64,000 nt of DNA. It comes from a virus. Position numbers and translations under genes: made by a program. Under the pieces are notes generated by a model. The model saw only the letters and a list, made by a program, of their open reading frames with translations, had not been told where the DNA came from and ran no database searches. The stretch lies in IMG/VR virus record IMGVR_UViG_3300027779_002770, positions 1 through 64,000 of that record; one strand, given 5' to 3'. Shown here one piece after another: positions 27,517-47,110 of the stretch (the first letter of the stretch is position 1; each line of letters opens with the position of its first letter).

Positions 27517-27951
27517 ATGTACGATTGCTATATTGCTAGTGGTTGGTTCAATGAGAATCAAGCACGAGACTTAGAAAACATAAAATCTACACTTGATGAA
27601 ATGGGTGTTAAATATTTTTCACCAAAAGATGAAATCGTTGCCAAGCGTGATGCCACATTGGAAGAGCAAGAAATGATTTTTAAGGGAAATGTTGATGCTA
27701 TCACAAGTGGAAAATTTGTTGTTTGTAATACACGTGATAAAGATCTGGGAACAATATTTGAGGCAGGATTTTCATATGCATCAGGTATTCCGCTAATCTA
27801 TTATGCTGAAGGGCTACAAGGTAATTTCAATCTTATGCTTTCTCGTAGTGGAAGGGCTGTTGCAACAAATGTAGATGAATTAAAAGAACACGTAAAAGGA
27901 ATAATGGAAAATCCAAAATATGAAAAAGAATACGTCGGTTTCGTTGAGTGA
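27517..27951 (+). CDS. nucleoside 2-deoxyribosyltransferase-fold nucleotide N-glycosidase (RCL/MilB-like)
   Basis: YIASGWF, DLGTIFEAGF (nucleophile Glu), FNLML. Confidence 0.85.
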   Translation: MYDCYIASGWFNENQARDLENIKSTLDEMGVKYFSPKDEIVAKRDATLEEQEMIFKGNVDAITSGKFVVCNTRDKDLGTIFEAGFSYASGIPLIYYAEGLQGNFNLMLSRSGRAVATNVDELKEHVKGIMENPKYEKEYVGFVE

Positions 27952-28453
27952 TTTTGTAGATAATATCTATATTTTAAAAGCACTTACAAGATATAATAAT
28001 AAATTTAAAATAATTAATGAATCAGTAGCAGAACATTCTTATTTTGTTGCTGTATTAACACTTAAAATGCATGATGATTATAATTTTGATCTAGAAGAGG
28101 CGCTCAAAATGGCACTAATTCATGACATTCCGGAATTACATTTATCAGATGTCACACATGATGTAAAGCGTAATTTTCCAAAGCTTGCACAAGAAGTAAC
28201 TAATGCTGAATATGTCATTATGAAGCAAAAATATCCGCAATGGTTCACAGAATTCAAAAAATTTGAAGATCAGGAGTCAGTTGAGGCATTAGTTGTAAAG
28301 ATGGCAGATAATCTTAGTTGTGTGCAATATGCAACTGCAGAAATGTTGCTTGGCAATAAGGGTTATATGAAAGAAGTCGCTGAAAATGCCGCTAAAAGAG
28401 TTATGCAATGTGAAAGAAAATTAAAAAAATGGAGAAAAATAAATGCCAATTAA
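27920..28453 (+). CDS. HD-domain 5'-deoxynucleotidase (YfbR/DatZ-like)
   Basis: RY...ESVAEHS, ALIHDIPE, KMAD. Confidence 0.88.
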   Translation: MKKNTSVSLSDFVDNIYILKALTRYNNKFKIINESVAEHSYFVAVLTLKMHDDYNFDLEEALKMALIHDIPELHLSDVTHDVKRNFPKLAQEVTNAEYVIMKQKYPQWFTEFKKFEDQESVEALVVKMADNLSCVQYATAEMLLGNKGYMKEVAENAAKRVMQCERKLKKWRKINAN

Positions 28454-29408
28454 CAATGATTTACCAGTAGTTGAACTTCCAACTGGTCTGGGATTTAACG
28501 AACCAATAAAAACAGACTTCCATGATCATCTGGACTCTGTAAAAATAAAGCTAGTAAGCAGCCCTTCAATAGAAGAATTAAGAAACTATATACCTGACTT
28601 TTGTACTGCTACATGGGCAGAACAGCCTTTCAATAAAGCCGGACTGTCAAATTATGAAAAAGATAAAATGATTTGGATGTTATTTGATGGAAAGCTATTG
28701 CCAACAGCATTCGAAACAATAAACTGTACGTTTACCATAGAGGGTATTGACACTCAATTTGTAACACACTTAATCAGACATCGTACATTCAGCTTTTCAG
28801 CGCAATGTACAGGTGACAGATCACAAAGAAATGATAATGCTGTCATACCCCATGCAATCATTAACACACCTGAGATGGCTGAACGCTATAAACAATTAGT
28901 CAATGACACAAAGCAGCTTTACGCTGACATGGTTGACACAAAGCAAATTTCTGTTATGGATGCCAGGCATATTTTGCCAAAATGCCTAAGTACATTTTAC
29001 TGGGCAAGAGGTAACATAAGAGATGTAATGGCTTTTATCAAGACCCGCATCGATAAACAAATCCAACCAACAGAAGATAATTTAGTTGCATACTACATGT
29101 GGTTAGAACTGGTAAGGCAATATCCAATGCTTATTGACTGTATCGACATCCACACGCCTGCAAGATATTATATTTCTACAGCAAGAACAGGTACAGGCAC
29201 AAATCTTTACTGGCCAGATGAAGACTCTGATCTGTTTGACTATAATGAAGATGATTTTTTATATCAGTCTATACGTGAAGATCTTAACGGAACTAAAGAC
29301 TCTGGTAGAAATACATTCATTGAAAAGCTAATAGAAGTAGATAAAGAATTAGAAGAAATAAGACAAGTCGCATATGAAAGATATGATTTTTTAAAAGAAG
29401 GAAAATAG
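28443..29408 (+). CDS. thyX: divergent flavin-dependent thymidylate synthase (ThyX-like)
   Basis: RHRTFSFSAQC, DARHILP, N.R...F...R motifs. Confidence 0.82.
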   Translation: MPINNDLPVVELPTGLGFNEPIKTDFHDHLDSVKIKLVSSPSIEELRNYIPDFCTATWAEQPFNKAGLSNYEKDKMIWMLFDGKLLPTAFETINCTFTIEGIDTQFVTHLIRHRTFSFSAQCTGDRSQRNDNAVIPHAIINTPEMAERYKQLVNDTKQLYADMVDTKQISVMDARHILPKCLSTFYWARGNIRDVMAFIKTRIDKQIQPTEDNLVAYYMWLELVRQYPMLIDCIDIHTPARYYISTARTGTGTNLYWPDEDSDLFDYNEDDFLYQSIREDLNGTKDSGRNTFIEKLIEVDKELEEIRQVAYERYDFLKEGK

Positions 29409-29761
29409 TGGAACGGCTAGAAGAAATATACGAACTACAGAAACATTTTACAGAAAGATTCTTTAAAGAAAAACAAGGGTTAACATTAGATGAAGTAAGA
29501 TCTGATAAAGAACAACTTGTAAAATGGAACAAAGAATACATACTCGCTTTAATAGCTGAGGCGACTGAGGTTTTAAACGAAGTTGATTGGAAGATGCATA
29601 AAAAAATGAATCTTCCAAATGATGCAAGAGAACGATTACTGGAAGAAAGTATTGATGTCATGAAATTCTTATTGGGACTGATGATAGTCAATGGATTCAG
29701 CCTTGAAGACATCTATACTATGTTTGTAAAGAAATCAAAAATAGTTGAAAAAAGACTATAA
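29408..29761 (+). CDS. all-alpha NTP pyrophosphatase (dimeric dUTPase / dCTPase / MazG-like)
   Basis: AEATEVLNEVDWKMHK...EESIDVMKF (ExxE...ExxD). Confidence 0.85.
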   Translation: MERLEEIYELQKHFTERFFKEKQGLTLDEVRSDKEQLVKWNKEYILALIAEATEVLNEVDWKMHKKMNLPNDARERLLEESIDVMKFLLGLMIVNGFSLEDIYTMFVKKSKIVEKRL

Positions 29762-29767
29762 AAAGCC

Positions 29768-29796
29768 TTTACACTTAAGCGAAAAAGGCTTAGATT
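29768..29796 (+). promoter_or_regulatory. sigma70-type promoter TTTACA-N17-TAGATT
   Basis: same hexamers and spacing at 33448 and 44874, variant at 58649. Confidence 0.75.
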
Positions 29797-29821
29797 CTAA
29801 TACAATAAAAAAGGTAATAAT

Positions 29822-32800
29822 TTGTCATTAAAAAATATAACACCACCAGATAGATTCACCGGGTTACATTCACACACAACATTTAGTACATTCGATGCAA
29901 TAGGCTACCCATCAGATCATATTGATTTTATTACAAGTGATCCGCAAGGCGGCGATTCATGGGCAATTACTGATCATGGAAATGGTAACGGATTAGGCCA
30001 CGCAAATGCGCATGCCAATATAGTTAAAAAGTCTGGTAGAAAATATCGTCAGTTATACGGTGTTGAATTTTATTTTATACCCTCAATAAAAACTTGGCAG
30101 CAACAATATGAAGCACATCGTGCAACTGTTCAAGCAGAAAGAGATGCTAAAAAACAAGAGAAGCTAGCAAATACACCAGTTATTATTGATGCTGAAAAAG
30201 AAGTAGAGGCAGGCGGCCATGTGTTAGAGGACGAATCTGAAACAAAGGGCTCTGCAAAAGGTAAACCGGCTTGGAAGAGGTATCATCATCTAGTTGTTGT
30301 TGCAAAAAATAGGCAAGGATTAGCTAATCTATTTACACTTGTTAAGAAGTCTTATAAAGATGGATTCTATAGATTCCCTCGTATTGATTTTGAAATGCTT
30401 AAAGCACATGGTGATGGGCTAGTTGTATCAACAGCATGTGTTGGAGGCCTGGCATCGGGTATAATTTACAATGAGTTTCAAGATTTAACTTTTGATCAAT
30501 TCCATCCTGATCTATTAAATAATTCATTGAAATACAATACAATCATGAAAAGATTAACAAATATGACTGATTATTTTGTTGATTGCGTTGGGCCAGAGAA
30601 CTTCTTCCTAGAAATACAATTTAATAAATTAACAGCACAACAAATGACAAATCGTATGTTGCTTGATTTATCTAAAAATACAGGTATCAAATTAGTTGCA
30701 ACTGCTGATTCACATTATCCATCACCTGATGTTTGGGAGGCAAGAGAACTTTATAAAAAATTAGGTTGGTTTAGCAACGATCCTAAAAAGATGATACTCC
30801 CAAAAGAAGAAGAACTAAAGTGCTTATTATACCCTAAAAATGCACAACAGATGTGGTCTGAATTTACAGAAAATTATAATGAATATGATTTTTATAAAGG
30901 TCATGAAACTGAAGTTCGCGATGCGATAAATAGAACACATGATATTGCGTGGGATCTATGTGAAGATACATGGATTGATCAATCAGCAAAGCTACCAATT
31001 CACGGAACAACAGAAAAACCTGCATTTAATATGCTTGTTGATTTAGCTAGAGAGGGCTTGATCCGTGAAGGCTTAGATAAAAAACAGGAATATATTGATC
31101 GTACAAAAAAAGAGTTAGCAGATATAAAGACACTTGGTCATGAATCATATTTTATAACAATGTATCAGATCTTTGACAAGTCTTCCAAGCGGACATTATT
31201 GGGCCCCGGTCGTGGTTCAGGCGCAGGTAGTCTTGTAAACTTCTTATTAGGAATAACTCAGCTTGATCCACTTGAATATGGCTTATTATGGGAAAGATTT
31301 TTAGGACCGCATAAAGTATCCTGGCCAGATATTGATACTGATGCAGGTGATCGCGATGTCCTAATTGAGGTATCAAAAGAGCTGTATGGCGAAGAATCAG
31401 TTATTCCTGTATCAAATTTCAATACACTAAAATTAAAATCACTTCTTAAAGATGTATCAAAGTTTTATGGCGTACCATTTGCAGAAGTAAACAATCTTTC
31501 AAACGGACTCCAGGAAGAAGTCATGCCTTTTGCACGTGGTGATAATGAAGAAAAATCAATGTTCATGCTTAAACATGAAGATTGTATGGAACATTCCAAA
31601 CGTTACAAAGATTTTATGGAAAAATATCCTAATGTTGCAAGACAAATCAGTTCTTTATTTTTACAAAATAGAAGTATTGGACGACATGCAGGCGGTGTTA
31701 TAATAGCACCTGAAAAAGATCTCACAAGCTGTATGCCTATTATATCAGTTAGAGGTGAATTACAAACACCGTGGTCTGAAGGCATGAATGTTAGAAATTT
31801 AGAACCTAATGGATTCCTTAAATTTGATTTCTTAGGTTTAACATTGTTACGAGATGTAGAAAATTGTATTAGACGTATTCTTAAAAAACAAGGTAATTCT
31901 GATCCAACATTTTTAGAAGTAAAAGAGTTCTTTGATAAAAAATTAAATTGTCGAAATGCAAAGATGGATGACCCAAAAGTCTGGAAACATGTGTATGAAG
32001 ATGGAAAGTTTACAGCAATCTTCCAGTTTACTGCAGATGGTGCAAGACGATTTTGTCTAGACGCAAAGCCAACCGACATTGAAACACTTGGAGCGATAAC
32101 AGCAATCTACAGACCTGGTCCGCTTAAAGCTAATGTACATCAAAAATTTGTTAAAAATAAACGACAAGCAGCGATGATAGACTATGATCATCCTTTAATT
32201 GAAAAAATATTAGGACCAACATTCAATAATATTGTATTTCAAGAACAGTTCATGTTGCTAGCACAAGATCTTTCAGGCTTTACATTAGGTGAGGCAGATA
32301 AGCTTAGGAAGACATTAGTTAAGATGTCACATGATTCTCTTAGCGGTAAGAAAAATGAAAGACAATTTGCAAAAGAGAAGTTTATTTCTGGTGCTAAGAA
32401 GCTTAATGGCATTGATGAAAAAATTACAACTGATTTGTGGGAAAAAATTGAAGCATTTTCTACGTATGGATTTAATAAATCACATGCAATTGCTTACGCA
32501 ATTGACTCTTACTATGGTGCATGGTTACACACATATTATGAAGTAGAATGGTTAGCAACAATACTTGATTCTGAAAATAATAATCCCAAAGGCTTAACAA
32601 AAACAATTTCTGAAATAAAATCTTATGGCTACCAAATTATTGATGCTGATATAAACTATTCTGGTATACAATGGGAATATTCAACTGAAATAGATGCATT
32701 TGTTCCTCCGCTATCTTCAATCAAAGGTGTAGGTGCTGCAGCAATGAATGAAGTTATGGGAGCTAGACCCTTTAGAAATATTAAAGAATTGTTATATGAT

Positions 32801-33457
32801 TCTGAAGGTAGCTGGAGATGGTCAAAGTTTAATAAGTCTGCAATTAAATCACTGTGTACTGTTGAGGCATTAGGCTCGATTGCGGAATTCAATAATGGAA
32901 CTTTAAATAATCATAATCAATTACTCCACGTGCTAACAGATGATAAAAATTATGAAACACTTAGAAAGCACATAAGCGGTTTAACAAAGACACAACGTCA
33001 GAAACTTGAAAAGCAAAATGAATACCCAACAGACTATATTGATGGATTATTTAGTAAATATGCAGATATTCCTGATTGGTCTAGAATGGAAAAGATCGAG
33101 AATTATGCTTCAATGACAGCAACAATAAAAAATGATCTTGTATTTCCGGAAGAAGTTATGGACCAAATTGGCTTACATAATGTAATATGTGCTTTTGATA
33201 TACCTGAAGGGACAAGGAAGCAAGGATGGTTTTCTGTTATTGAAAAGACTAAAAAGAAATCAAAAAATAATAGAGTTTTCTGGAGTCTAAAGATAATCGA
33301 TAATCAAAATAATACAGGCTGGTTACGTGTTTGGGGCGATTTTTACGAAGATAAAGAGCCAGGTAAATATACATTTTGTCTTGCTGATATTCACAATGAT
33401 TCACAATGGGGAATGTCAACAAATGCAGCAAAATTTAAAATAATACCTTTACAATAA
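29822..33457 (+). CDS. dnaE: DNA polymerase III alpha subunit (family C) with PHP domain
   Basis: HSHT, TDHG, ADSHY (PHP); GPGRGSGAGSL, PDIDTD, HAGG, KFDFLGL, YGFNKSHA. Confidence 0.96.
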   Translation: MSLKNITPPDRFTGLHSHTTFSTFDAIGYPSDHIDFITSDPQGGDSWAITDHGNGNGLGHANAHANIVKKSGRKYRQLYGVEFYFIPSIKTWQQQYEAHRATVQAERDAKKQEKLANTPVIIDAEKEVEAGGHVLEDESETKGSAKGKPAWKRYHHLVVVAKNRQGLANLFTLVKKSYKDGFYRFPRIDFEMLKAHGDGLVVSTACVGGLASGIIYNEFQDLTFDQFHPDLLNNSLKYNTIMKRLTNMTDYFVDCVGPENFFLEIQFNKLTAQQMTNRMLLDLSKNTGIKLVATADSHYPSPDVWEARELYKKLGWFSNDPKKMILPKEEELKCLLYPKNAQQMWSEFTENYNEYDFYKGHETEVRDAINRTHDIAWDLCEDTWIDQSAKLPIHGTTEKPAFNMLVDLAREGLIREGLDKKQEYIDRTKKELADIKTLGHESYFITMYQIFDKSSKRTLLGPGRGSGAGSLVNFLLGITQLDPLEYGLLWERFLGPHKVSWPDIDTDAGDRDVLIEVSKELYGEESVIPVSNFNTLKLKSLLKDVSKFYGVPFAEVNNLSNGLQEEVMPFARGDNEEKSMFMLKHEDCMEHSKRYKDFMEKYPNVARQISSLFLQNRSIGRHAGGVIIAPEKDLTSCMPIISVRGELQTPWSEGMNVRNLEPNGFLKFDFLGLTLLRDVENCIRRILKKQGNSDPTFLEVKEFFDKKLNCRNAKMDDPKVWKHVYEDGKFTAIFQFTADGARRFCLDAKPTDIETLGAITAIYRPGPLKANVHQKFVKNKRQAAMIDYDHPLIEKILGPTFNNIVFQEQFMLLAQDLSGFTLGEADKLRKTLVKMSHDSLSGKKNERQFAKEKFISGAKKLNGIDEKITTDLWEKIEAFSTYGFNKSHAIAYAIDSYYGAWLHTYYEVEWLATILDSENNNPKGLTKTISEIKSYGYQIIDADINYSGIQWEYSTEIDAFVPPLSSIKGVGAAAMNEVMGARPFRNIKELLYDSEGSWRWSKFNKSAIKSLCTVEALGSIAEFNNGTLNNHNQLLHVLTDDKNYETLRKHISGLTKTQRQKLEKQNEYPTDYIDGLFSKYADIPDWSRMEKIENYASMTATIKNDLVFPEEVMDQIGLHNVICAFDIPEGTRKQGWFSVIEKTKKKSKNNRVFWSLKIIDNQNNTGWLRVWGDFYEDKEPGKYTFCLADIHNDSQWGMSTNAAKFKIIPLQ

Positions 33458-33476
33458 CATGAAAAAGTATTAGATT
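33448..33476 (+). promoter_or_regulatory. sigma70-type promoter, probably leaderless transcript
   Basis: TTTACA-N17-TAGATT; ATG at 33482 only 5 nt after the -10; no SD. Confidence 0.7.
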
Positions 33477-33481
33477 CTATT

Positions 33482-34390
33482 ATGCTATTATTAAATAATA
33501 TTACACTTGAAGGTGCAGATTTGGCAGGAAAAACTACGCTAATGAAAAGACTTCACAAAGAGACAAAAAATAAATACAATATTATTGACAGATCTCTTAT
33601 GTCAGCGCTAGTTTATGCTAGGTTATATAAACGACCAAATATCTCACTTCTAGAAAAACAACTAAGAGATGATTTAAATAACTTAAATAATCGGACAATC
33701 GTATTAATGCCAGATTTAGAGTTATTAGGAGAGCGATACAATAAAAGAGGTGATGAGATTCAAAATTGGCATGGAATTATAAAGATAAGAGAAGCATACG
33801 AAGAAGTATTAAATATTTATGAATCATTTAGCACTGTCCATGTTGTTAGAAACTCATCTGAACTCCCATGGGAACCACATGATGAAGTATTGAAATATCT
33901 TGCGAATAGTGAGACTAGTGATATTCCTTATCAAGTTAGACAAAATGCTATTGCTTCTGATAATGAAGCATTTCCGGTAACATTTGAAGTTAATCTTAGC
34001 GCTAGTTTTATGACATCACATGCTGATGCATTAGAACATCAATCTGAAAAAGCTTATTATACAAAAATACTTTCTAAGATGTTGACAACAATTACAAAAG
34101 AAAATATTGGTGATAATCCTTACGGCAAACCACAAGATCCAAAAGCTACGAGACGATATATTTATGCAGATGATTCTTGTATAGCATTATTTCATATGAT
34201 GTATCGCAAAGATAGATTAAATTTCTATGCAACGTTAAGGTCATCAGATGTTGTAAATATATTTGAACACGATTATAAATTCTTATTGTATTTATGTGGT
34301 CAATGTGCAAAAGCCGTGGGAATAAAAGATTATGAAATACCAAAAGAAAATACGTTAACAATTACGCTACATTCAGCACACATAACATAA
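33482..34390 (+). CDS. fusion of dNMP (thymidylate-like) kinase and thymidylate-synthase-fold enzyme with dCMP-type Asp
   Basis: P-loop EGADLAGKTT and DRS in N-half; RR, catalytic Cys, RSSD, Asp at the Asn177-equivalent position and SAH in C-half. Confidence 0.8.
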   Translation: MLLLNNITLEGADLAGKTTLMKRLHKETKNKYNIIDRSLMSALVYARLYKRPNISLLEKQLRDDLNNLNNRTIVLMPDLELLGERYNKRGDEIQNWHGIIKIREAYEEVLNIYESFSTVHVVRNSSELPWEPHDEVLKYLANSETSDIPYQVRQNAIASDNEAFPVTFEVNLSASFMTSHADALEHQSEKAYYTKILSKMLTTITKENIGDNPYGKPQDPKATRRYIYADDSCIALFHMMYRKDRLNFYATLRSSDVVNIFEHDYKFLLYLCGQCAKAVGIKDYEIPKENTLTITLHSAHIT

Positions 34391-34824
34391 TGCCAAATTA
34401 TAACAAGTACTTTAAACAAATATTAAAAGAGACAGCTGCTATGTCAACATGTGCAAGGGTACAAGTTGGTTGTGTAATTGTAAGAGATGGAAGAATAATA
34501 TCAACAGGATGGAACGGTGTACCTGCTGGACAAGAGCATTGTAAAGATGAGTATGTATTTGGTGGTTTGCCAATTGAATCACATCACACATGGTCAACAA
34601 AGCATGAAGTTCATGCTGAGACAAACGCAATAGGCTATGCTGCGAAAAATGGGGTAGCTACACAAGGTGCAACAATTTACACGTCAGTCTCACCTTGTAT
34701 TGACTGCGCAAAATTAATAATAGCAGCAGGTATAAAGTGTGTTTATTATATAGACGAGTATGATAGAAGTAATACTGGAGAAGCATTTTTACGTAGAAAT
34801 AAAATAGGTTGTACAAAATTATGA
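34390..34824 (+). CDS. dCMP deaminase
   Basis: STCARVQVG, GWNG, HAETNA, SPCIDC. Confidence 0.93.
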   Translation: MPNYNKYFKQILKETAAMSTCARVQVGCVIVRDGRIISTGWNGVPAGQEHCKDEYVFGGLPIESHHTWSTKHEVHAETNAIGYAAKNGVATQGATIYTSVSPCIDCAKLIIAAGIKCVYYIDEYDRSNTGEAFLRRNKIGCTKL

Positions 34825-35231
34825 AAAGAATAAATAGAAATCTTTACAAGATAGAAGAAGATGATAGAGACAGTGCTGAAAGCAAGAACTGGAACAACAG
34901 CATAAATACTTTTATAGGTAATCTTTCTGAGATAGCAGCATGCAGTTATTTGGGAATTGACTGGTCAACAGCAGATAAAGCTACAGCTGATATTATCGAT
35001 GATGATGGGCTAAGGTATCAAGTAAAAGGGACAAAAGAAGGGTTCAATAAAAAAAGATACTGGCTAGAACAGGGTATAACTAAACAATTTGATAGGTACA
35101 TATTTGTTGTAGTTGATGAAGAAGAAAAGTTTGCTAAAATAGAAATGGATGTAGTTAAGCAAATACCACACCAAAACGTGCATGAAGTCACATTAAGTGG
35201 TAAAAGGCTTCAAGCTATATTTAGAAAATAG
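34821..35231 (+). CDS. PD-(D/E)XK restriction-endonuclease-like protein
   Basis: G..SE helix, ADI...QVK; ATGA overlap gives start 34821. Confidence 0.55.
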   Translation: MKRINRNLYKIEEDDRDSAESKNWNNSINTFIGNLSEIAACSYLGIDWSTADKATADIIDDDGLRYQVKGTKEGFNKKRYWLEQGITKQFDRYIFVVVDEEEKFAKIEMDVVKQIPHQNVHEVTLSGKRLQAIFRK

Positions 35232-35239
35232 GAGTTGTA

Positions 35240-35656
35240 ATGAGTATCAGAGAGAGTGATATGACAATAAAAAAGAGTTTAAAGAAGAATGCAAGAACGC
35301 AGGCTGGGAGACAGAAAAGTAATGCAGAATCAGTACTTAGACAAGCTTACCCTCAAATGATCAATGAATTTAGACAAATTCAAGAAGAACAATTTGATTT
35401 ATTTTGTAAAAAGCAGCATGATTACGGCCCAGGGAATATTTCAGTTGGAACACAATTACAGACAGAAGAAGAAATAAAATTATCTCTTACAGGATTATGG
35501 TTCAGAATTAATGACAAATGCCAGAGACTAAAAACTTTGTTAATGAACAACCGAGAAAGTGCAGTTAAAGATGAACCATTAGAAGATACATTTCTTGACA
35601 TTTCTAATTATGGAATTATGGCAACTATTGTCAGTAGAGGGAAGTGGGGTAAATAA
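35240..35656 (+). CDS. nucleotide-modification-associated domain 1 (DUF1599-like) protein
   Basis: KKQHDYG, RINDK..RL, EDTFLDISNYGIM. Confidence 0.82.
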   Translation: MSIRESDMTIKKSLKKNARTQAGRQKSNAESVLRQAYPQMINEFRQIQEEQFDLFCKKQHDYGPGNISVGTQLQTEEEIKLSLTGLWFRINDKCQRLKTLLMNNRESAVKDEPLEDTFLDISNYGIMATIVSRGKWGK

Positions 35657-35659
35657 CTA

Positions 35660-36523
35660 ATGGGAAGAATTAGCTGGTCGCAAGTCCAAACATATACACA
35701 GTGTCCTTATAAGTGGAAGTTAAATTATATTGATGGGCACAAAACATTCACAGATTCAATATTTACAGTGTATGGTAAGGCACTTCACGATACACTACAA
35801 ACATACTTAACAAAAATGTATTCTGTGTCTATTAAAGAAGCTGACGAAATAGATTTGTCAAATATGGTCGTTGACAGGCTTAAGTATCATTATGGTGAAG
35901 GTGTTAAAAATGCAAATGGAGTTCATTTTTCTACACAATCACAACTAACTGAGTTTTGTATTCAAGGAGCAAAAGCACTTGATTGGTTTAAACGACATAG
36001 ATCTGATTATTTTAACAAGAAAGACTGGGAATTATTGGGTGTTGAGACACCGATAGAGACACATTATAAGACTGTAGACGTGCTGGGCTATATTGATGTA
36101 TTAATGAGAAATACAAAGACAGGTCGAATTAAGGTTATTGATATCAAGACATCAACTAGAGGCTGGAAAAAAGAAAAGACAGACCAAATGAAGCGAGGCC
36201 AACTTTTATTTTATAAAAAATTCACAGCTGAAAAATATAATGTCGATATTTCAATGGTAGATGTAGAATTCATTATCGTAAAACGAATGGTGTGGGAAAA
36301 TTCAGACTTTCCAGTAAAATATATTCAAAGATTTGAGCCACCGTCTGCAGGTGTATCAATTAATAGAATTTTTGATAAAGTTGACCTATTTATTAGTGAA
36401 TGTTTTAATAAAGATGGAAGTTACAAGGTAGAAACAAAGTATGAAAAACTTGGCGTACAAAATAAATGTAAGTGGTGTGAATTTGCGGACAAGCCAGCAC
36501 TATGCGATAAGGGCAAATCATGA
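35660..36523 (+). CDS. PD-(D/E)XK Cas4/RecB-like exonuclease
   Basis: SWS...CPYKW, GYIDVL, IDIKTS, C-terminal CKWC...C. Confidence 0.88.
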   Translation: MGRISWSQVQTYTQCPYKWKLNYIDGHKTFTDSIFTVYGKALHDTLQTYLTKMYSVSIKEADEIDLSNMVVDRLKYHYGEGVKNANGVHFSTQSQLTEFCIQGAKALDWFKRHRSDYFNKKDWELLGVETPIETHYKTVDVLGYIDVLMRNTKTGRIKVIDIKTSTRGWKKEKTDQMKRGQLLFYKKFTAEKYNVDISMVDVEFIIVKRMVWENSDFPVKYIQRFEPPSAGVSINRIFDKVDLFISECFNKDGSYKVETKYEKLGVQNKCKWCEFADKPALCDKGKS

Positions 36524-37225: not shown

Positions 37226-38704
37226 ATGCTTAAGCTAGGTGACGTTCGTAATGGATACGAAGTTCTCCCGCATAACAAAAGAAAAACAGTCCTGCTATTA
37301 AGTGACGATTTAAGAATGACGTCAGGTGTCGGGAATATGTCAAGAGAATTTGTTATGGGAACTTTGCATCAAATTAATTGGATTCAAATTGGTGGTGCAA
37401 TAAACCATCCAGACGCTGATAAGGCGATAGACATGAATGAAGATGTGCAAAAAAGAACTGGAATTGAAGACGCATATTTAAAAATACATCCAGTAAATGG
37501 TTATGGAAACCAAGAGATTGTTCGACAATGTCTAAATTTTTATAAACCTGATGCAATCATGATCTATACAGATCCAAGATTCTGGGGATGGTTGTTCCAA
37601 ATGGAAAATGAAATACGTCAAAATCTGCCTATTTTTTATTACAATATATGGGATGATCTTCCGTACCCGATGTGGAACCAAAAATATTATGATTCTGTAG
37701 ATGCATTATTTAATATATCACGACAAAGTGTTAATATTGTAAAGCAAGTAAGATCATCATACGAAGATTGGCAAGCAACATACATTCCGCATGGTATCAA
37801 TGAAGATGATTTTTTTCCATTACCTAAGAAATATGAGAAACAAAAAGAATACGAAGAATTTAAAAAAGATGCATTGCAACACAGTAAAAAAGATTTTGTA
37901 CTTTTCTATAATGCTAGAAATATTAGAAGGAAATTACCAGCAGATATTGTTTATGCGTATAGAACATTTTGTGATTCTATTCCAAAAGAAGATGCTGCTA
38001 GGTGTTTATTATTAATGCATTGTGCACCAGCAGATGAAAATGGAACTGATCTTCCTGAAGTTGTAGCAAATTTATGCCCTGATTATTCTGTTGGCTTCTC
38101 TTCCGGAAAGCTTGAAAGAGAACAAATGAATTGGTTATATAATTTATCAGATTGTTCGATACTAATAAGTTCTAATGAAGGATTTGGCTTAATGGGTGCA
38201 GAATCATTAATTACTGGCACGCCATTAATTGTAAATGTTTCAGGCGGAATGCAAGATTATTGTGGATTTAAAAAAGAAAACGGAGAGTATCTAACAGTTG
38301 ATGATTACACTCTAGAGTGGGGATCAAATCATGATGGACGATATAAGGATCACGGTGAGTGGGTATTTCCTGTATATCCAATGTCGCGATCAATTCAGGG
38401 CTCAATACCAACTCCATATATTTCTGATGATAGACCTGATTGGCAAGATGTTGCAATACAAATTAAAAAAGCATGGTCTATGAGAGGTAAGAAATTACAA
38501 GAAGCAGGTATGAAAGGAAGAGAATTTATTCTTGATCCGGAAATAGGAATGACATCATCAGAAATGTGTAGAAGGTTTGTACATGATATGCATCAAGTAT
38601 GGGAAAACTGGAAACCAAGAGCAAGAATGACAATAGATAATGCTACATTATGGAATCCAAGAAAGATAAAATTTAACGGTCTAACATTAAACAAGGAGAT
38701 ATAA
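37226..38704 (+). CDS. glycosyltransferase family 4 (GT-B)
   Basis: SGVG, RNIRRK, SSNEGFGLMGAES. Confidence 0.9.
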   Translation: MLKLGDVRNGYEVLPHNKRKTVLLLSDDLRMTSGVGNMSREFVMGTLHQINWIQIGGAINHPDADKAIDMNEDVQKRTGIEDAYLKIHPVNGYGNQEIVRQCLNFYKPDAIMIYTDPRFWGWLFQMENEIRQNLPIFYYNIWDDLPYPMWNQKYYDSVDALFNISRQSVNIVKQVRSSYEDWQATYIPHGINEDDFFPLPKKYEKQKEYEEFKKDALQHSKKDFVLFYNARNIRRKLPADIVYAYRTFCDSIPKEDAARCLLLMHCAPADENGTDLPEVVANLCPDYSVGFSSGKLEREQMNWLYNLSDCSILISSNEGFGLMGAESLITGTPLIVNVSGGMQDYCGFKKENGEYLTVDDYTLEWGSNHDGRYKDHGEWVFPVYPMSRSIQGSIPTPYISDDRPDWQDVAIQIKKAWSMRGKKLQEAGMKGREFILDPEIGMTSSEMCRRFVHDMHQVWENWKPRARMTIDNATLWNPRKIKFNGLTLNKEI

Positions 38705-39996
38705 TGGGAAAACCGAGTGTTTTAGTTACTGCACCTGTTGCAACAAGATCAGGATACGGGGCAAGATCAAGAGACGTTGTGCATGCATTATTAAAATTAG
38801 ATAAGTATGACGTCAGTGTATTTCCTGTACCGTGGGGAACAACAGCACAAAATGCTCTAGTCATTGATAACCCTAGAGATAAAGCAATATTTGATTGTAT
38901 AGTAACAAGTCAAGATGCGCTACCAAAGAATCCTGATGTTCATATACATATCGTTGTTCCAAATGAATTTATGCCAGTTGGAAAATATAATATTGGAATA
39001 ACAGCCGGCCTCGAGGCAACAGCAATTCCGCAATCTTGGATCGAAGGTATTAATCGAATGGACTTGACACTGGTAAGCTCAGTATTTAGCAAGGATGTTT
39101 GTCTGCTAACAGAGTACACTGACAAGGCTGTAAACAAAGTTATGAAAGTTGAAAAGCCAGTTGAGGTTTTATTTGAAGGAACAGATACTGATATATTTCA
39201 TAAGAAAGCTTCAGGGTCAAGCTTCTCAAAGCCTATTGTTGATGTAATGAAACAAATTAAAGAGAACTGGTGCTTTTTATTTGTTGGCCATTGGCTTCAA
39301 GGACCAGAAGGACATGATAGAAAAGATGTTGCAAATCTTATTAGATCTTTTATGACAACTTTTAGAAATAAAAAAGATACTGCGCTAATACTAAAGACAT
39401 CTGGCGCAACAAATTGTGTATTAGATAGAGAAGAGTTATTACGAAAAATAAGAAATATAAAAATATCACTTGATCTCCCTGAGAGCGCGCTACCAAGTGT
39501 TTATCTATTACATGCAGATTTATATGATGATGAAGTGAATGATTTGTACAACCATCCAAAGGTAAAAGCTCATATTACATTTACACACGGAGAAGGATTT
39601 GGAAGGCCATTGCTAGAAGCAAGTCTGTCAGCTAAGCCAATTCTTGCTACAGGGTGGTCCGGACACACAGATTTTCTTAATAAAACCAATACAGTTTTAT
39701 TGCCAGGCAGCATGATAGATGTTCATCCTGCTTCACTTCCAGAGAATATTTTTGTCAAAGGACAACAATGGTTTTGTGTTAATTATCCTGAGGCAGCAAG
39801 ACAAATGCTAAGTGTTCGAAAAAATCATAAGGTATTTAAAGCAAAGGCTGCAAAACAAGCAATGTGGAACAAATCAAAATTTAGTTTTGATAGTATGACG
39901 AAGAGGTTAGGCAGTATATTAAATGATAATCTTCCAAAATTTACAGAAACAGTTATACCAAAGATTAACTTACCAAAATTAGAAAAAACATCATGA
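38704..39996 (+). CDS. glycosyltransferase family 4 (GT-B)
   Basis: SGYG, DRK, HGEGFGRPLLEA. Confidence 0.9.
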   Translation: MGKPSVLVTAPVATRSGYGARSRDVVHALLKLDKYDVSVFPVPWGTTAQNALVIDNPRDKAIFDCIVTSQDALPKNPDVHIHIVVPNEFMPVGKYNIGITAGLEATAIPQSWIEGINRMDLTLVSSVFSKDVCLLTEYTDKAVNKVMKVEKPVEVLFEGTDTDIFHKKASGSSFSKPIVDVMKQIKENWCFLFVGHWLQGPEGHDRKDVANLIRSFMTTFRNKKDTALILKTSGATNCVLDREELLRKIRNIKISLDLPESALPSVYLLHADLYDDEVNDLYNHPKVKAHITFTHGEGFGRPLLEASLSAKPILATGWSGHTDFLNKTNTVLLPGSMIDVHPASLPENIFVKGQQWFCVNYPEAARQMLSVRKNHKVFKAKAAKQAMWNKSKFSFDSMTKRLGSILNDNLPKFTETVIPKINLPKLEKTS

Positions 39997-40205
39997 TGCA
40001 ACTAGGCTCATCAATTGTGAAAGCTATAAGAAAAAAGCTTGAAGGCGAAATTGAAACTCATAAAGTTAACATTCAAATTATGCTTGAAAACACGGTTGGC
40101 ATTGCTAACCATCCTAATGTTATAGAGACAATTGAAGATAAGCTTAGCATTATGGCTGCTTGTGAAGATAAAATATTAGTTTTAGAAAAATACTTTGAGG
40201 TATGA
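39993..40205 (+). CDS. small phage hypothetical protein
   Basis: VGIANHPNVIETI motif; coupled ORF. Confidence 0.7.
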   Translation: MMQLGSSIVKAIRKKLEGEIETHKVNIQIMLENTVGIANHPNVIETIEDKLSIMAACEDKILVLEKYFEV

Positions 40206-40324
40206 ATATGATGTTAGCTATAATACCAAGCTTTATGCAAAATTGGGAAATGATCTACTTTTGTATGTTTTGCTTATTAATGATGGATTTTACAGATTGG
40301 ATAGATAGAAAATGGAAAAAGTAA
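40202..40324 (+). CDS. possible 40-aa membrane peptide (MNMMLAIIPSFMQNWEMIYFCMFCLLMMDFTDWIDRKWKK)
   Basis: ATGA overlap; fills the gap between genes; hydrophobic core. Confidence 0.4.
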   Translation: MNMMLAIIPSFMQNWEMIYFCMFCLLMMDFTDWIDRKWKK

Positions 40325-40758
40325 TACAATGTTTTGTGTGTGAAGATCTAGACCACTGCTTCGAAGAAGTACAAGAAGCATATAGCAGTTTTATGTGTTT
40401 TAAATGTGGCTTCATGAGTGATACAAGATTCAATAATGATCATGATAGAGAGTCTGAACAAAATATGGCGTTGTTAATGAATAAGATTAAAGTCTTTGAT
40501 GAAGTAAGAAGAATCTGGTGGTATCCCTCTGTTGTTAATATGGGTAAGTTGGGTATGATTTTTCCTGAAGGCTCTAGCAAATATGACTGGCAATGGAAAT
40601 TTGCTAAGGTCGTACCTGTTTCACAAGGTGATACTGCGGCAGAAGGTTATACTGAAAAATTAGATATTGAAAATGCAGATACCTATAACAAAGCTGATTT
40701 TATATCAGCTATCAAAGATATGGGAATAACAAAGGATCTAAGAAATGCGAAGAATTAG
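40312..40758 (+). CDS. hypothetical protein with Zn-ribbon
   Basis: CFVC...CFKCG. Confidence 0.7.
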   Translation: MEKVIQCFVCEDLDHCFEEVQEAYSSFMCFKCGFMSDTRFNNDHDRESEQNMALLMNKIKVFDEVRRIWWYPSVVNMGKLGMIFPEGSSKYDWQWKFAKVVPVSQGDTAAEGYTEKLDIENADTYNKADFISAIKDMGITKDLRNAKN

Positions 40759-41239
40759 TTGGGCATCTTCACAGCCAGGCCAAGTTGTAAAATTTAGATA
40801 CAAAGGCAAACGTCCAGGCGCAAAAGCTCGTCTTCGTGAGTGTTTTATTTTAAACCCACAACACATGTATAAACGAAAAGATGGAAAAAGAGTAAGATTA
40901 GTTCACGCAGTGCAATTTAGTGCAGTACCTCCCAAAAAAGGAACAAGAAATCTACAAACAAATCAAATTAGCATGATCTTAGAAGGACTATCAGATGAAT
41001 TATTACTTCTAGAAAGCGGTGAAGTGGAAGCTCTTGTAAAAAACCCACCAAGAGTGACATACCAAAAAGTTCAAAGATTGCTCAAGCAGATATCATCACC
41101 AATATACAGAACTTTTTCTTGGCAACTTCTTCAGAGAAGCGCTGTATTTGTTGTTGACGATCTTGAGTTGACACCTGCCCTTCAAAGCAAGCTAATTTCA
41201 TTCAGCCCTGATCCAAATGTTGATGAGTCTGACATATGA
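40745..41239 (+). CDS. basic hypothetical protein
   Basis: coupled ORF. Confidence 0.6.
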   Translation: MRRISWASSQPGQVVKFRYKGKRPGAKARLRECFILNPQHMYKRKDGKRVRLVHAVQFSAVPPKKGTRNLQTNQISMILEGLSDELLLLESGEVEALVKNPPRVTYQKVQRLLKQISSPIYRTFSWQLLQRSAVFVVDDLELTPALQSKLISFSPDPNVDESDI

Positions 41240-41871
41240 TTTCAATAAGTTACGCGGTTACAACACATAATGAACATAAAGAGATAGAAGAGCTTATACC
41301 TTTTATACTAAATAATAAAGATAAAGAAGATGAGCTAGTTATCCTTGATGATTATTCCAGCTATGAGACATGGCGAGTATTTGATGAGTACATTCATATT
41401 CCAGATGCAAATATTAAATTTGTAGAACGTGGATTTCATGGAGACTTTTCTACACATAAAAATTTTATGAATGATCAATGCAGTGGAGATTGGATTGTTA
41501 ATATTGATGCCGATGAAATGCCAAATAAATTTTTAATGTCAAATATTAAGGGTTTACTAGAGGCGAATCCAGAAGTTGAATTATTTTGGGTGCCAAGAGT
41601 GAATACTGTCAAGGGTATAACACCACAACATGCAAGACAATGGCATTATAAGATAAATGAACAGGGATGGGTTAATTGGCCAGACCCACAACAAAGAATT
41701 TATAAAAATAAAGATGATATTAAGTGGACAAGAAGAGTTCATGAACGATTAATTGGTGCAAAAAAAGATGCATTCTTGCCGTATGAAGAACAATGGTGTT
41801 TTTATCATCATAAGACAATAGAAAAACAAGAAGCACAAAATAAGTTATATGGAGACATACAAGCTAATTGA
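41236..41871 (+). CDS. glycosyltransferase family 2
   Basis: TTHNE, LDDYS, IDADE (DxD), RVHE. Confidence 0.9.
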   Translation: MISISYAVTTHNEHKEIEELIPFILNNKDKEDELVILDDYSSYETWRVFDEYIHIPDANIKFVERGFHGDFSTHKNFMNDQCSGDWIVNIDADEMPNKFLMSNIKGLLEANPEVELFWVPRVNTVKGITPQHARQWHYKINEQGWVNWPDPQQRIYKNKDDIKWTRRVHERLIGAKKDAFLPYEEQWCFYHHKTIEKQEAQNKLYGDIQAN

Positions 41872-43614: not shown

Positions 43615-43623
43615 GGAGTTATA

Positions 43624-44868: not shown

Positions 44869-44873
44869 AAGCC

Positions 44874-44902
44874 TTTACATTTAAACAAAAAAGGGTTAGA
44901 TT
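44874..44902 (+). promoter_or_regulatory. sigma70-type promoter TTTACA-N17-TAGATT
   Basis: near copy of the 29761-29806 element (AAAAGCCTTTACA...TTAGATTCTAATACAATAA). Confidence 0.75.
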
Positions 44903-44929
44903 CTAATACAATAATCAAAGGAATACAGA

Positions 44930-45112: not shown

Positions 45113-45152
45113 TAATTACCATGAAAATAAAATACAAAAAGGAAACAACAAA

Positions 45153-45368: not shown

Positions 45369-45383
45369 CAAAAAGGAATTAAT

Positions 45384-46636: not shown

Positions 46637-46671
46637 ATACTATATATATTAATGTAAAATAAAAAGTTATA

Positions 46672-47094: not shown

Positions 47095-47110
47095 AGAAGA
47101 AAATATTGGA

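What the first reader, a model, noticed from the sequence alone, without database searches (positions are those of the whole stretch)
27517..36523. Candidate cytosine-replacement / DNA base-modification pathway wrapped around a DnaE polymerase
Seen: one block encodes an NDT-fold N-glycosidase, HD deoxynucleotidase, Cys-variant ThyX, all-alpha dNTP pyrophosphatase, DnaE, a kinase/TS-fold fusion with dCMP-type Asp, dCMP deaminase, a PD-(D/E)XK nuclease, Nmad1/DUF1599 and a Cas4-like nuclease. Known: T4 replaces C using dCMP hydroxymethylase (gp42), dNMP kinase (gp1), dCTPase (gp56) and nucleases against C-DNA; Z-genome phages use HD (DatZ) and MazG-like (MazZ) enzymes in the same way. Inference: this phage makes a modified dCTP, purges the canonical nucleotide and incorporates the new base with its own family-C polymerase, while ThyX and the deaminase supply dTMP. 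I do not know of this combination being characterised. Glycosyltransferases begin about 0.7 kb downstream and could hypermodify the base.
Basis: partly seen in the sequence, partly recalled or inferred. Interest (0 to 1): 0.9.

Follow-up and report, generated by a model that had tools for sequence, protein, structure and literature searches.

The report
Phage kinase–mini thymidylate synthase module
An uncultured marine giant phage carries, next to its own DNA polymerase, an enzyme that joins a nucleotide kinase to a stripped-down thymidylate-synthase domain built to grip cytosine nucleotides, together with an odd second kind of ThyX, so its DNA probably (unproven) contains a chemically altered cytosine.

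Summary
The gene calls are real. All ten genes at 27517-36523 belong to the families named; only the small "PD-(D/E)XK nuclease" is weak.

The decisive gene is 33482-34390. It fuses a YorR/Tmk-like kinase to a 145-residue thymidylate-synthase (TS) core. Cys, Arg-Arg, Arg-Ser, His and the Asp that replaces ThyA Asn177 are near-invariant; Asp is 130/130. Its nearest solved relatives are cytosine-specific TS enzymes: phage HY126 dCMP 5-hydroxylase and T4 dCMP hydroxymethylase. The family is essentially virus-only and follows DnaE in 80/80 related contigs.

A modified-cytosine pathway is therefore the best reading (about 0.55), but the product is unknown.

- The HD protein resembles 5'-deoxynucleotidases, not DatZ.
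- The MazG-like protein resembles dUTPases.
- HD, Nmad1, both nucleases and the glycosyltransferases occur only in the 3-4 closest relatives.

New here:
- The Cys-variant ThyX is a paralogue. 23/50 related records, including the only complete one, also hold a canonical ThyX.
- In smaller phages, including cultured Geobacillus phage GR1, this variant is translationally coupled to a standalone mini-TS.

The scan has met this family before on other DNA.

The parts
27517..27951 (+). NDT-fold protein (nucleoside 2'-deoxyribosyltransferase family). Transferase or N-glycosidase is undecided.
   Evidence: PF05014 6.8e-14 and phrog_7995 1.9e-22. The only PDB sequence relative is NDT 6evs, 1.4e-7, with the catalytic Glu motif kept. 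Found within 10 kb of the fusion in 39-41/80 related loci.
27920..28453 (+). HD-domain 5'-deoxynucleotidase-like protein (YfbR/HDDC2 type).
   Evidence: PF12917 7.6e-17. PDB: PH0347 3.3e-13, HDDC2 4e-6, YfbR 0.02, no DatZ. Present only in 4/80 related loci.
28443..29408 (+). Divergent ThyX paralogue ('Cys variant', 321 aa). Motif is RHR..S....C.GDR, with Cys122 in place of Ser88 plus a 2-residue insert carrying an invariant Asp.
   Evidence: PF02511 72.5 bits, but below the NCBIfam ThyX equivalog cut-off (43.8 against 87.9). Alignment A2. Best PDB hit is the S88C mutant 3g4c. Present in 46/50 fusion-bearing records, 23 of which also hold a canonical ThyX. Directly followed by a mini-TS gene in 16/80 loci and in phage GR1.
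29408..29761 (+). All-alpha NTP pyrophosphohydrolase (MazG/dimeric-dUTPase-like). Substrate unknown.
   Evidence: PF08761 dUTPase_2 2.2e-9 and phrog_173 5.9e-11. PDB shows only dimeric dUTPases at E 0.1. The only phage relatives are Streptomyces phage MazG/dUTPase. Found in 20-24/80 loci.
29767..29796 (+). Promoter-like motif (CTTTACA-N7-GAAAAAG-N2-TTAGATT) upstream of dnaE.
   Evidence: 3 copies in the window against 0.04 expected.
29822..33457 (+). DnaE-type (family C) DNA polymerase with PHP domain.
   Evidence: PF07733 4.7e-52, PF17657, PF02811 and PF14579. Upstream of the fusion on the same strand in 80/80 loci, with a gap under 200 nt in 32.
33447..33476 (+). Second copy of the same promoter-like motif, directly upstream of the fusion gene.
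33482..33952 (+). Kinase domain of the fusion (residues 1-157). P-loop, YorR/thymidylate-kinase-like.
   Evidence: VIA Z 12.9 to YorR 3kb2 (rmsd 3.0, 139 aligned) and Z about 12 to Tmk. Profile against PDB: YorR 1.8e-10. K17, D36, R37, R85, R89 and D91 are invariant in 130 sequences.
33953..34390 (+). Minimal thymidylate-synthase-fold domain (residues 158-302). Key residues: Cys233; Arg224/225; Arg253-Ser254; Asp264 at the ThyA Asn177 position; Asp230 at the Leu143 position; Asp256 at the Asp169 position; His300.
   Evidence: Model pLDDT 91.2. In the wide VIA search the top 7 hits are all TS superfamily: AfhB 9iqc Z 8.7/127 aligned, ThyA 8.4, T4 dCH 8.0, MilA 7.4; the next unrelated hit is 6.2. 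The profile hits only T4 dCH (1.5e-3) and AfhB (0.03) in PDB.
34390..34824 (+). dCMP deaminase (zinc motifs intact).
   Evidence: PF00383 1e-24, phrog_174 2.3e-52 and ComEB 1.3e-30. Found in 67-69/80 related loci.
34809..35231 (+). Small protein, possibly of restriction-endonuclease-like fold. Unverified.
   Evidence: Only sub-threshold DUF6998 (3.5e-4, 20.9 bits against 27). A homologue is seen in 1/80 loci by tblastn.
35240..35656 (+). DUF1599 / Nmad1 protein. Function unknown.
   Evidence: PF07659 3.2e-7 and phrog_1485 1.2e-15. Found in only 3/80 loci. Homologues occur in crAss-like, Lactococcus 949-like and Microcystis phages.
35660..36523 (+). Cas4/RecB-like PD-(D/E)XK exonuclease with a Cys cluster.
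   Evidence: PF12705 2.2e-17 and phrog_69 6.1e-20. Found in only 3/80 loci.

Best explanation
The block is the replication and nucleotide-metabolism module of an uncultured marine giant phage. The record is a linear fragment, about 41% complete.

Its conserved heart is dnaE followed by one bifunctional protein. The C-terminal minimal thymidylate-synthase core binds dCMP; the Asp at the Asn177 position reads the cytosine N3/N4 face. Cys233 attacks C6 and so activates C5 for a substituent. The N-terminal YorR/Tmk-like kinase then phosphorylates the product (or, alternatively, supplies the dCMP). After host NDP kinase, the phage's own DnaE builds the altered cytosine into DNA.

The divergent Cys-type ThyX paralogue is proposed to work with the mini-TS. 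The mini-TS has lost about 100 residues, including most cofactor-binding parts, so ThyX would supply the flavin-bound one-carbon unit or the reduced/oxygenated flavin.

dCMP deaminase, the NDT-fold enzyme, the HD 5'-nucleotidase and the MazG/dUTPase-like enzyme shape the pyrimidine pool.

Shown: the folds, the active-site residues, the linkage and the virus-only distribution. Inferred: the substrate, the existence and nature of the C5 substituent (hydroxymethyl, hydroxyl or methyl), the ThyX partnership and incorporation into DNA.
For: - TS fold. An independent search of 48,161 chains puts 7 TS-superfamily enzymes on top: AfhB Z 8.7, ThyA 8.4, T4 dCH 8.0, MilA 7.4. There is then a gap to 6.2.
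- The domain profile finds only cytosine-specific enzymes in PDB: T4 dCMP hydroxymethylase 1.5e-3 and HY126 dCMP hydroxylase 0.03.
- In 130 family members Cys, Arg253-Ser254, Asp264 and the kinase P-loop/LID residues are invariant; His300 is kept in 129.
- The kinase fold has Z 12.9. The whole-protein model is one compact body, pTM 0.88.
- Phage TS homologues need a cognate dNMP kinase to get 5hodC into DNA, and N177D, L143D/E and D169N are the published specificity markers (PMC13326640).
- Linkage: DnaE lies upstream in 80/80 loci and dCMP deaminase is present in 67-69/80.
- Virus-only: 1 hit in 185,579 prokaryote genomes, on a 26-kb MAG contig. There are 413 clusters in 1.84 billion proteins.
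- ThyX partnership: the variant is in 46/50 fusion-bearing records, and a canonical ThyX is also present in 23/50, including the only complete genome.
- The variant ThyX overlaps or abuts a dCMP-type TS-like gene in 16/80 loci (standalone mini-TS, a kinase fusion, or a fuller form) and in cultured phage GR1.
Against: - No chemistry or DNA analysis exists.
- The domain lacks about 100 residues of a normal TS. Pfam's TS model does not detect it.
- The Asp169-equivalent, which separates folate enzymes (Asp) from flavin hydroxylases (Asn), is not fixed: D 69, N 47, E 14. The Leu143-equivalent varies too, so neither known chemistry fits cleanly.
- No T4-type dCTPase is identifiable.
- No DNA glycosyltransferase is conserved across the family.
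- About half of the complete variant-ThyX genomes show no detectable mini-TS, so ThyX does not depend on it.
- CATG and GATC are mildly under-represented (0.75, 0.85), as in unmodified phages. This is weak evidence.
Confidence: 0.55

Rival explanations
1. Ordinary dNTP-supply module with canonical DNA. The genes (RNR, ThyX, dCMP deaminase, dUTPase-like, NDT, 5'-nucleotidase, kinase) only re-balance pools for an AT-rich (65% A+T) genome. The mini-TS domain would then be a dCMP-binding regulatory or vestigial module on a dNMP kinase, or would catalyse a reaction that leaves no mark in DNA.
For: - Every gene other than the fusion has an ordinary reading.
- Distant relatives add thymidine kinase (67 loci), a DHH phosphoesterase (48) and GMP reductase (17) to the same neighbourhood.
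- The TS domain is truncated and its cofactor-site residue is variable.
- There is no conserved purge enzyme or DNA transferase.
- The phage assembles readily from Illumina metagenomes of at least 14 studies.
Against: - A vestigial domain would not keep Cys, Arg-Arg, Arg-Ser, Asp, Glu and His near-invariant across 130 sequences at 30-40% identity.
- Standalone mini-TS genes exist without any kinase, so the domain has a job of its own.
- The family is absent from cells.
Confidence: 0.27
2. A modified pyrimidine nucleotide is made but is not a wholesale replacement of C in DNA. It could be a partial or site-limited substitution. It could be a decoy or inhibitor nucleotide against host nucleotide-depleting defences such as dCTP deaminases. 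Or the variant ThyX alone could be the modifying enzyme, with the mini-TS only tuning it.
For: - No dCTPase or C-DNA-specific nuclease was identified to enforce full replacement.
- The variant ThyX occurs without a mini-TS in complete 45-kb genomes, directly before DnaE.
- A canonical ThyX coexists with it in the giant relatives.
Against: - The tight coupling to the replicative polymerase and to a kinase points to a polymerase substrate.
- Nothing here identifies a defence target.
Confidence: 0.13
3. Purine (Z-genome-like) or thymine replacement, in which the HD protein acts as DatZ, the MazG-like protein as MazZ, or the TS-like domain acts on dUMP.
For: The best PHROG for the HD protein is labelled 'dATP triphosphohydrolase' (phrog_7076, 1.9e-21).
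Against: - There is no PurZ/adenylosuccinate-synthetase-like gene in the 82.6-kb record.
- The HD protein's solved relatives are 5'-deoxynucleotidases, and no DatZ chain matched at E <= 0.1.
- The HD gene is present in only 4/80 relatives.
- The Asn177 position is Asp in 130/130 sequences, which argues against dUMP.
- Relatives keep thymidine kinase and a canonical ThyX.
Confidence: 0.03

Closest known systems
Flavin/O2-dependent 5-hydroxy-dCMP synthases of the TS superfamily (phage HY126 AfhB, PDB 9iqu/9iqc; RB69 gp48; DLP3 gp80), together with their separate dNMP kinases (PMC13326640).
   Same: - Best structural match: Z 8.7, 127 residues aligned; Foldseek 5.1e-7.
- Shares the Cys nucleophile, the Asp at the Asn177 position and an acidic residue at the Leu143 position.
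- The protein ends a few residues after the S-A-H motif, as AfhB does.
- A kinase is needed for entry into DNA.
   Different: - The window protein has Asp, not the diagnostic Asn, at the Asp169 position. The family is mixed: D 69, N 47, E 14.
- The domain is about 80-90 residues shorter.
- It is fused to the kinase.
- It is linked to a ThyX paralogue and to DnaE.
- No arabinose or UDP-sugar pathway is tied to it.
T4 hydroxymethylcytosine pathway: gp42 dCMP hydroxymethylase, gp1 dNMP kinase, gp56 dCTPase and cd dCMP deaminase.
   Same: - Best sequence match in PDB: 1b49, 1.5e-3, aligning Cys148 and Asp179.
- Asp at the Asp169 position, as in folate enzymes.
- Kinase and deaminase are present.
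   Different: - About 100 residues of the folate-enzyme fold are missing.
- The kinase is of YorR/Tmk type, not gp1 type, and is fused.
- No gp56-like dCTPase was identified.
- The polymerase is family C, not family B.
Canonical flavin-dependent thymidylate synthase ThyX (T. maritima TM0449).
   Same: - Pfam Thy1 domain.
- The RHR motif is kept, along with equivalents of Arg147 and Arg174.
   Different: - About 90 residues longer.
- Ser88 is replaced by Cys.
- A 2-residue insert carries an invariant Asp.
- The His53 equivalent is Thr.
- It scores below the NCBIfam equivalog cut-off.
- It coexists with a canonical ThyX in relatives.
- It is gene-coupled to a dCMP-type TS-like protein.
MilA/MilB of mildiomycin biosynthesis: a TS-like CMP hydroxymethylase plus an NDT-fold hmCMP N-glycosidase.
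   Same: A TS-fold enzyme with a cytosine-type Asp (MilA, Z 7.4) occurs in the same gene neighbourhood as an NDT-fold protein.
   Different: - The NDT-fold protein here matches a true deoxyribosyltransferase (6evs), not MilB.
- The setting is a phage replication module, not antibiotic biosynthesis.

Membership tests
Thymidylate synthase superfamily (ThyA / dCMP hydroxymethylase fold) | TS alpha/beta fold. | tested here: met
   The domain model (pLDDT 91.2) was searched against 48,161 chains. The top 7 hits are all TS superfamily (Z 8.7-7.4, 121-127 aligned). The next unrelated hits score 6.2 and 5.1.
Thymidylate synthase superfamily (ThyA / dCMP hydroxymethylase fold) | Catalytic Cys, plus Arg-Arg, Arg-Ser and His at the ThyA 146, 126/127, 166/167 and 207 positions. 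| tested here: met
   C233, R224, R253 and S254 are invariant. R225 is kept in 129/130 and H300 in 129/130.
Thymidylate synthase superfamily (ThyA / dCMP hydroxymethylase fold) | Recognised by the curated family model (Pfam PF00303), with full-length fold of about 220 residues or more. | tested here: not met
   PF00303 finds nothing in the record at E <= 0.001. The domain is only about 145 residues.
Thymidylate synthase superfamily (ThyA / dCMP hydroxymethylase fold) | Obligate homodimer, with the Arg pair donated across the interface. | not testable with these tools
dCMP-specific TS homologues | Asp in place of ThyA Asn177. | tested here: met
   Asp264 is present in 130/130 family members. 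It is also kept in the standalone forms.
5-hydroxy-dCMP synthase (AfhB / RB69 gp48 type) | Asn at the ThyA Asp169 position (the D169N signature of PMC13326640). | tested here: not met
   The window protein has Asp256. Across the family the counts are D 69, N 47, E 14.
5-hydroxy-dCMP synthase (AfhB / RB69 gp48 type) | Flavin cofactor, with O2 as the oxygen source. | not testable with these tools
   Needs biochemistry.
T4 gp42-type dCMP hydroxymethylase | Asp at position 169 and an acidic residue at position 143, together with a complete folate-binding fold. | tested here: inconclusive
   Asp256 and Asp230 are present in the window protein. However, about 100 residues of the fold are absent and both positions vary within the family.
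dNMP/thymidylate kinase-like P-loop kinases (YorR, Tmk) | P-loop kinase fold with LID arginines. | tested here: met
   Z 12.9 to YorR (3kb2) and about 12 to S. aureus Tmk. K17, R85 and R89 are invariant. Whether the phosphoryl acceptor is a nucleoside or a nucleotide was not testable.
ThyX (flavin-dependent thymidylate synthase) | Thy1 domain and the RHRxxS....S.R motif. | tested here: inconclusive
   PF02511 scores 72.5 bits, over the cut-off. TIGR02170 scores 43.8 bits against a cut-off of 87.9. The second Ser is Cys and there is a 2-residue insert.
ThyX (flavin-dependent thymidylate synthase) | It is the phage's dTMP synthase, that is, its sole ThyX. | tested here: not met
   A canonical ThyX (216-275 aa, 115-177 bits, standard motif) coexists in 23/50 related records. 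These include the only complete record and one from the window's own clade. The window's 41%-complete record itself shows only the variant.
DatZ (dATP triphosphohydrolase of Z-genome phages) | DatZ-like HD enzyme accompanied by PurZ. | tested here: not met
   No PF00709 match in the record. The HD protein's PDB relatives are 5'-deoxynucleotidases.
T4 gp56 / MazZ-type purge pyrophosphatase | All-alpha NTP-PPase fold with dCTP (or dGTP) specificity. | tested here: inconclusive
   The fold family is met (PF08761, 38.2 bits against a cut-off of 22.9). Specificity is unknown. The only phage relatives found are Streptomyces phage MazG/dUTPase.

The most novel reading that the evidence does not exclude
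The Cys-type ThyX paralogue and the minimal TS domain form a two-component, flavin-dependent pyrimidine C5-modifying enzyme of a kind not yet described. The mini-TS holds dCMP covalently through its Cys. The ThyX paralogue delivers a flavin-bound methylene or oxygen. The fused kinase traps the product for a dedicated family-C polymerase. This would give an abundant clade of marine giant phages, and smaller phages such as Geobacillus phage GR1, a modified and possibly new cytosine.
Probability: 0.3. Interest if true: 0.85.

Novelty: new variant of a known kind. Interest (0 to 1): 0.7.

Why it matters
Pre-replicative cytosine replacement is known from a handful of cultured phage groups. These include the T-even phages (hmC) and RB69, DLP3, HY126 and RL38JI (5-hydroxy-C).

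This family would extend cytosine replacement to a large clade of uncultured marine giant phages that use DnaE. The family comprises 413 protein clusters, and the phage itself was seen in marine metagenomes of at least 14 studies. The enzyme architecture is new: the smallest TS core known, fused to a kinase and genetically tied to a ThyX paralogue.

Three consequences would follow:
- It would bear on how TS enzymes switch cofactor and chemistry.
- It would affect how marine viral DNA behaves in restriction, CRISPR and sequencing.
- It offers compact enzymes for making modified nucleotides.

A cultured phage with the split form (GR1) makes the question directly testable.

Tried and rejected
- No near-identical DNA exists among 50,697 phage records. 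tblastn with the fusion finds only a 47-residue P-loop match in cultured or deposited phages.
- I looked for a link between the Asp/Asn/Glu state at the Asp169 position and the neighbouring genes. There was no partition.
- I looked for a conserved DNA glycosyltransferase or other hypermodification gene among the conserved unknown neighbours. Pfam and PHROGs gave thymidine kinase, DHH, a SOD-like protein and GMP reductase, with nothing transferase-like. None of these neighbours is present in the window's own record.
- Palindrome avoidance was inconclusive. CATG is 0.75 and GATC 0.85, with no contrast between C-containing and AT-only sites.
- The sigma-70 promoter and terminator scan was not above shuffles.
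- Public runs hold the phage only as assembled contigs, so no modification calling is possible.
- Metatranscriptome contigs of three studies cover parts of NDT, HD, the ThyX variant, DnaE and Nmad1. None covers the fusion gene. These libraries may contain DNA, so nothing is concluded.
- A scan for standalone mini-TS genes independent of ThyX (alignment A4) returned only two loci already known. The statement 'mini-TS always accompanies the variant ThyX' therefore rests on 46/50 fusion-bearing records plus ThyX-ascertained loci.
- Literature searches found no paper on DUF1599/Nmad1 function or on ThyX paralogues in cytosine modification. The GR1 paper contains no DNA-modification data.

Full report
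**Observation**

The window is the first 64 kb of an 82,659-bp linear IMG/VR virus record that CheckV rates about 41% complete. G+C is about 35%, and every sizeable gene lies on the + strand. No cultured phage is close at the DNA level.

The ten ORFs between 27517 and 36523 exist as described, and Pfam and PHROGs confirm the families:
- an NDT-fold protein
- a YfbR-like HD phosphohydrolase
- a ThyX-family protein
- an all-alpha dUTPase_2/MazG-like pyrophosphatase
- a 1211-aa DnaE
- a 302-aa protein with weak kinase and TS hits
- a dCMP deaminase
- a small protein with only a sub-threshold DUF6998 hit
- DUF1599/Nmad1
- a Cas4-like PD-(D/E)XK exonuclease

Upstream lie a GalE-like epimerase, gp32, a RecA/UvsX-like protein, a 5'-3' exonuclease, DnaB and a class II RNR. 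Downstream, from 37226, two GT4 glycosyltransferases open a roughly 13-kb sugar island.

**The key gene, 33482-34390**

Fifty homologous protein clusters of 296-319 aa were found, almost all from marine metagenomes.

The AlphaFold model is confident and compact (pLDDT 91.8, pTM 0.88). Residues 1-150 form a YorR/thymidylate-kinase-like P-loop kinase. VIA gives Z 12.9 to 3kb2 (rmsd 3.0, 139 aligned), and the family profile hits YorR at 1.8e-10.

Residues 158-302 were folded alone (pLDDT 91.2) and searched against 48,161 representative chains without any Foldseek prefilter. The seven best hits are all thymidylate-synthase-superfamily enzymes:
- HY126 dCMP hydroxylase AfhB, 9iqc: Z 8.7, 127 residues aligned
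- two ThyA structures: Z 8.4
- T4 dCMP hydroxymethylase: Z 8.0
- two further TS-superfamily chains (6auj, Z 7.9; 8dae, Z 7.7)
- MilA: Z 7.4

Scores then drop to unrelated folds at 6.2 and 5.1. Foldseek agrees.

At the sequence level, the domain profile hits only five PDB sequences, all cytosine-specific. T4 dCH scores 1.5e-3 and AfhB 0.03. The alignment places Cys233 on the catalytic Cys and Asp264 on T4 Asp179, which corresponds to ThyA Asn177.

In 130 family members the following are invariant, or in three cases 128-129 of 130:
- kinase domain: K17, D36, R37, R85, R89, D91
- TS domain: E189, Y192, R224, C233, R253, S254, D264 (invariant); Y193 (128/130), R225 and H300 (129/130 each)

**What the domain lacks**

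It is about 100 residues shorter than ThyA or T4 dCH and about 80-90 shorter than AfhB. Pfam's TS model does not detect it.

Lee et al. (NAR 2026, PMC13326640) showed three things:
- Phage TS homologues with N177D act on dCMP.
- An acidic residue at Leu143 goes with non-methyl products.
- D169N marks the flavin/O2-dependent 5-hydroxy-dCMP synthases.

They also showed that a cognate dNMP kinase is needed to drive the product into DNA.

The window protein has Asp at all three positions (D264, D230, D256), which is the hydroxymethylase-like pattern. Across the family, however, the 169-equivalent is D 69, N 47, E 14, and the 143-equivalent also varies. Neither state correlates with the neighbouring genes. 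The product therefore cannot be read from known rules.

**Co-conservation**

Eighty IMG/VR loci with 10-kb flanks were examined. Their contigs run up to 284 kb, and the fusion is 30-66% identical to the window's. Counts by gene:

| Gene | Loci out of 80 |
|---|---|
| DnaE upstream, same strand | 80 (gap under 200 nt in 32) |
| dCMP deaminase | 67-69 |
| Thymidine kinase | 67 |
| GalE-like epimerase | 58-64 (starts under 150 nt after the fusion in 29) |
| SOD-like protein | 56 |
| DHH phosphoesterase | 48 |
| NDT | 39-41 |
| ThyX variant | 31 |
| MazG-like | 20-24 |
| HD | 4 |
| Nmad1, Cas4-like nuclease, GT4 pair | 3 each |
| Small nuclease-like ORF | 1 |

The family is essentially absent from cells. 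There is one hit in 185,579 prokaryote genomes, on a 26-kb contig of a MAG, probably mis-binned. It comprises 413 clusters among 1.84 billion representatives.

- HD protein. Its solved relatives are PH0347, HDDC2, OxsA and YfbR 5'-deoxynucleotidases. No DatZ chain matched, and there is no PurZ.
- MazG-like protein. It matches only the dimeric dUTPase/MazG families. The record has no trimeric dUTPase, so a plain dUTPase role is as likely as a dCTPase role.
- NDT-fold protein. It resembles a true nucleoside deoxyribosyltransferase.
- Cas4-like protein. It belongs to a common phage exonuclease family.
- DUF1599. It occurs in crAss-like, Lactococcus and Microcystis phages with no known link to a base modification.

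**The ThyX gene**

Cys122 replaces Ser88 of T. maritima ThyX. The best PDB hit of the family profile is the S88C mutant 3g4c. The Cys and an adjacent inserted Asp are invariant. The protein falls below NCBI's ThyX equivalog cut-off.

I searched 50 fusion-bearing records with the Thy1 model. The long variant (319-359-aa ORFs, 55-86 bits) is present in 46. A second, canonical ThyX (216-275 aa, 115-177 bits, standard RHR..S....S.RY motif) is present in 23. Those 23 include the only 100%-complete genome, 6 of 9 records at least 50% complete, and a record from the window's own clade. The variant is therefore a paralogue and is unlikely to be the dTMP synthase.

These are a 145-aa kinase (hhalign 96%, 4.7e-9) and a 151-aa mini-TS (96.5%, 8.8e-10). 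The mini-TS start overlaps the stop of a variant ThyX. A nitroreductase-like flavin reductase, NDT, HD, a glycosyltransferase, DnaE, a dUTPase_2-like gene and thymidine kinase lie around them.

In 80 IMG/VR loci found through the ThyX variant, 16 have a dCMP-type TS-like ORF starting at most 120 nt after it, often overlapping. These ORFs take three forms:
- standalone mini-TS proteins of 150-217 aa
- one kinase-mini-TS fusion in a complete 54-kb genome
- one fuller 302-aa TS-like protein

All keep Cys, Arg-Ser, the Asp and His. This points to a functional pair.

The link is asymmetric. About half of the complete variant-ThyX genomes have no detectable mini-TS; in those that I read, the ThyX is followed directly by an 888-aa DnaE or, in one, by a dUTPase and a primase.

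**Interpretation**

The most likely reading (about 0.55) is a pre-replicative cytosine modification in four steps:
1. The mini-TS activates C5 of dCMP.
2. A cofactor-bearing partner, probably the ThyX paralogue, supplies the group.
3. The fused kinase phosphorylates the product.
4. DnaE incorporates it into DNA.

Rival readings:
- An ordinary pool-balancing module with a non-modifying TS remnant: 0.27.
- A modified nucleotide that does not fully replace C, or a ThyX-centred chemistry: 0.13.
- A purine or thymine replacement: 0.03.

Sequence statistics and public reads cannot decide between them.

**Novelty**

This is a new variant of a known kind, namely phage TS-superfamily dCMP modification plus a kinase. 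Its unusual features are the minimal, fused architecture and the ThyX-paralogue link.

The scan has met the same family on other DNA several times, and those follow-ups reached similar conclusions.

Noticed in passing
window 29767-29796, 33447-33476, 44873-44902 (+): A 30-nt promoter-like motif (CTTTACA-N7-GAAAAAG-N2-TTAGATT) occurs three times. It lies directly upstream of dnaE, of the kinase-mini-TS gene, and after the DegT aminotransferase gene. Only 0.04 copies are expected by chance.
   Followed up: partly
window 37226-52260: A sugar island follows the block. It holds two GT4 enzymes, GT2, a GT29-like sialyltransferase-motif protein, two epimerase/dehydratases, a DegT aminotransferase, a cupin, an SDR and a cytidylyltransferase. 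Near the fusion gene, the GT4 pair and GT2 recur only in the three nearest relatives (L001-L003), GT29 only in L003; the rest of the island lay outside my test.
   Followed up: partly
L005-L080 (relatives), about 0-2 kb downstream of the fusion gene: A GalE/TviC-like NDP-sugar 4-epimerase sits next to the fusion gene, in the middle of the nucleotide genes, in most distant relatives (52/80 within 2 kb). In the window its homologue lies at 20146-21048. Its role in a nucleotide module is unexplained.
   Followed up: partly
L122, L131, L133, L136 (complete ~45-kb phage genomes): The variant ThyX is followed directly by an 888-aa DnaE-type polymerase, with no detectable mini-TS. The ThyX variant seems tied to DnaE-encoding phages in general.
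   Followed up: partly
L108:4039-4947: A fuller-length (302 aa) dCMP-type TS-like protein lies directly downstream of a variant ThyX. It may be an evolutionary intermediate between normal TS homologues and the mini-TS.
   Followed up: no
L081 (PBHZ01000014.1, 26 kb): A contig filed under a Methanobacteriota (marine group II-like) MAG carries a 69%-identical fusion gene. It is probably a mis-binned phage contig.
   Followed up: no
whole record G000 (82,659 bp): Strong strand compositional asymmetry (A 36.7%, T 27.7%, G 20.4%, C 15.2%), with all genes on one strand. CATG (obs/exp 0.75) and GATC (0.85) are mildly under-represented.
   Followed up: partly
window 27519-29231 and scattered up to 35432: 100%-identical contigs from three marine metatranscriptome studies cover parts of NDT, HD, the ThyX variant, DnaE and Nmad1. 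The libraries may contain DNA, so this is only a weak hint of activity in situ.
   Followed up: partly
PP395634.1 (Microcystis phage Mel-JY01) 78461-78781: A cultured 190-kb cyanophage encodes a DUF1599/Nmad1 protein that is 48% identical to the window's. It is the closest cultured-phage relative of any accessory gene in the block.
   Followed up: no
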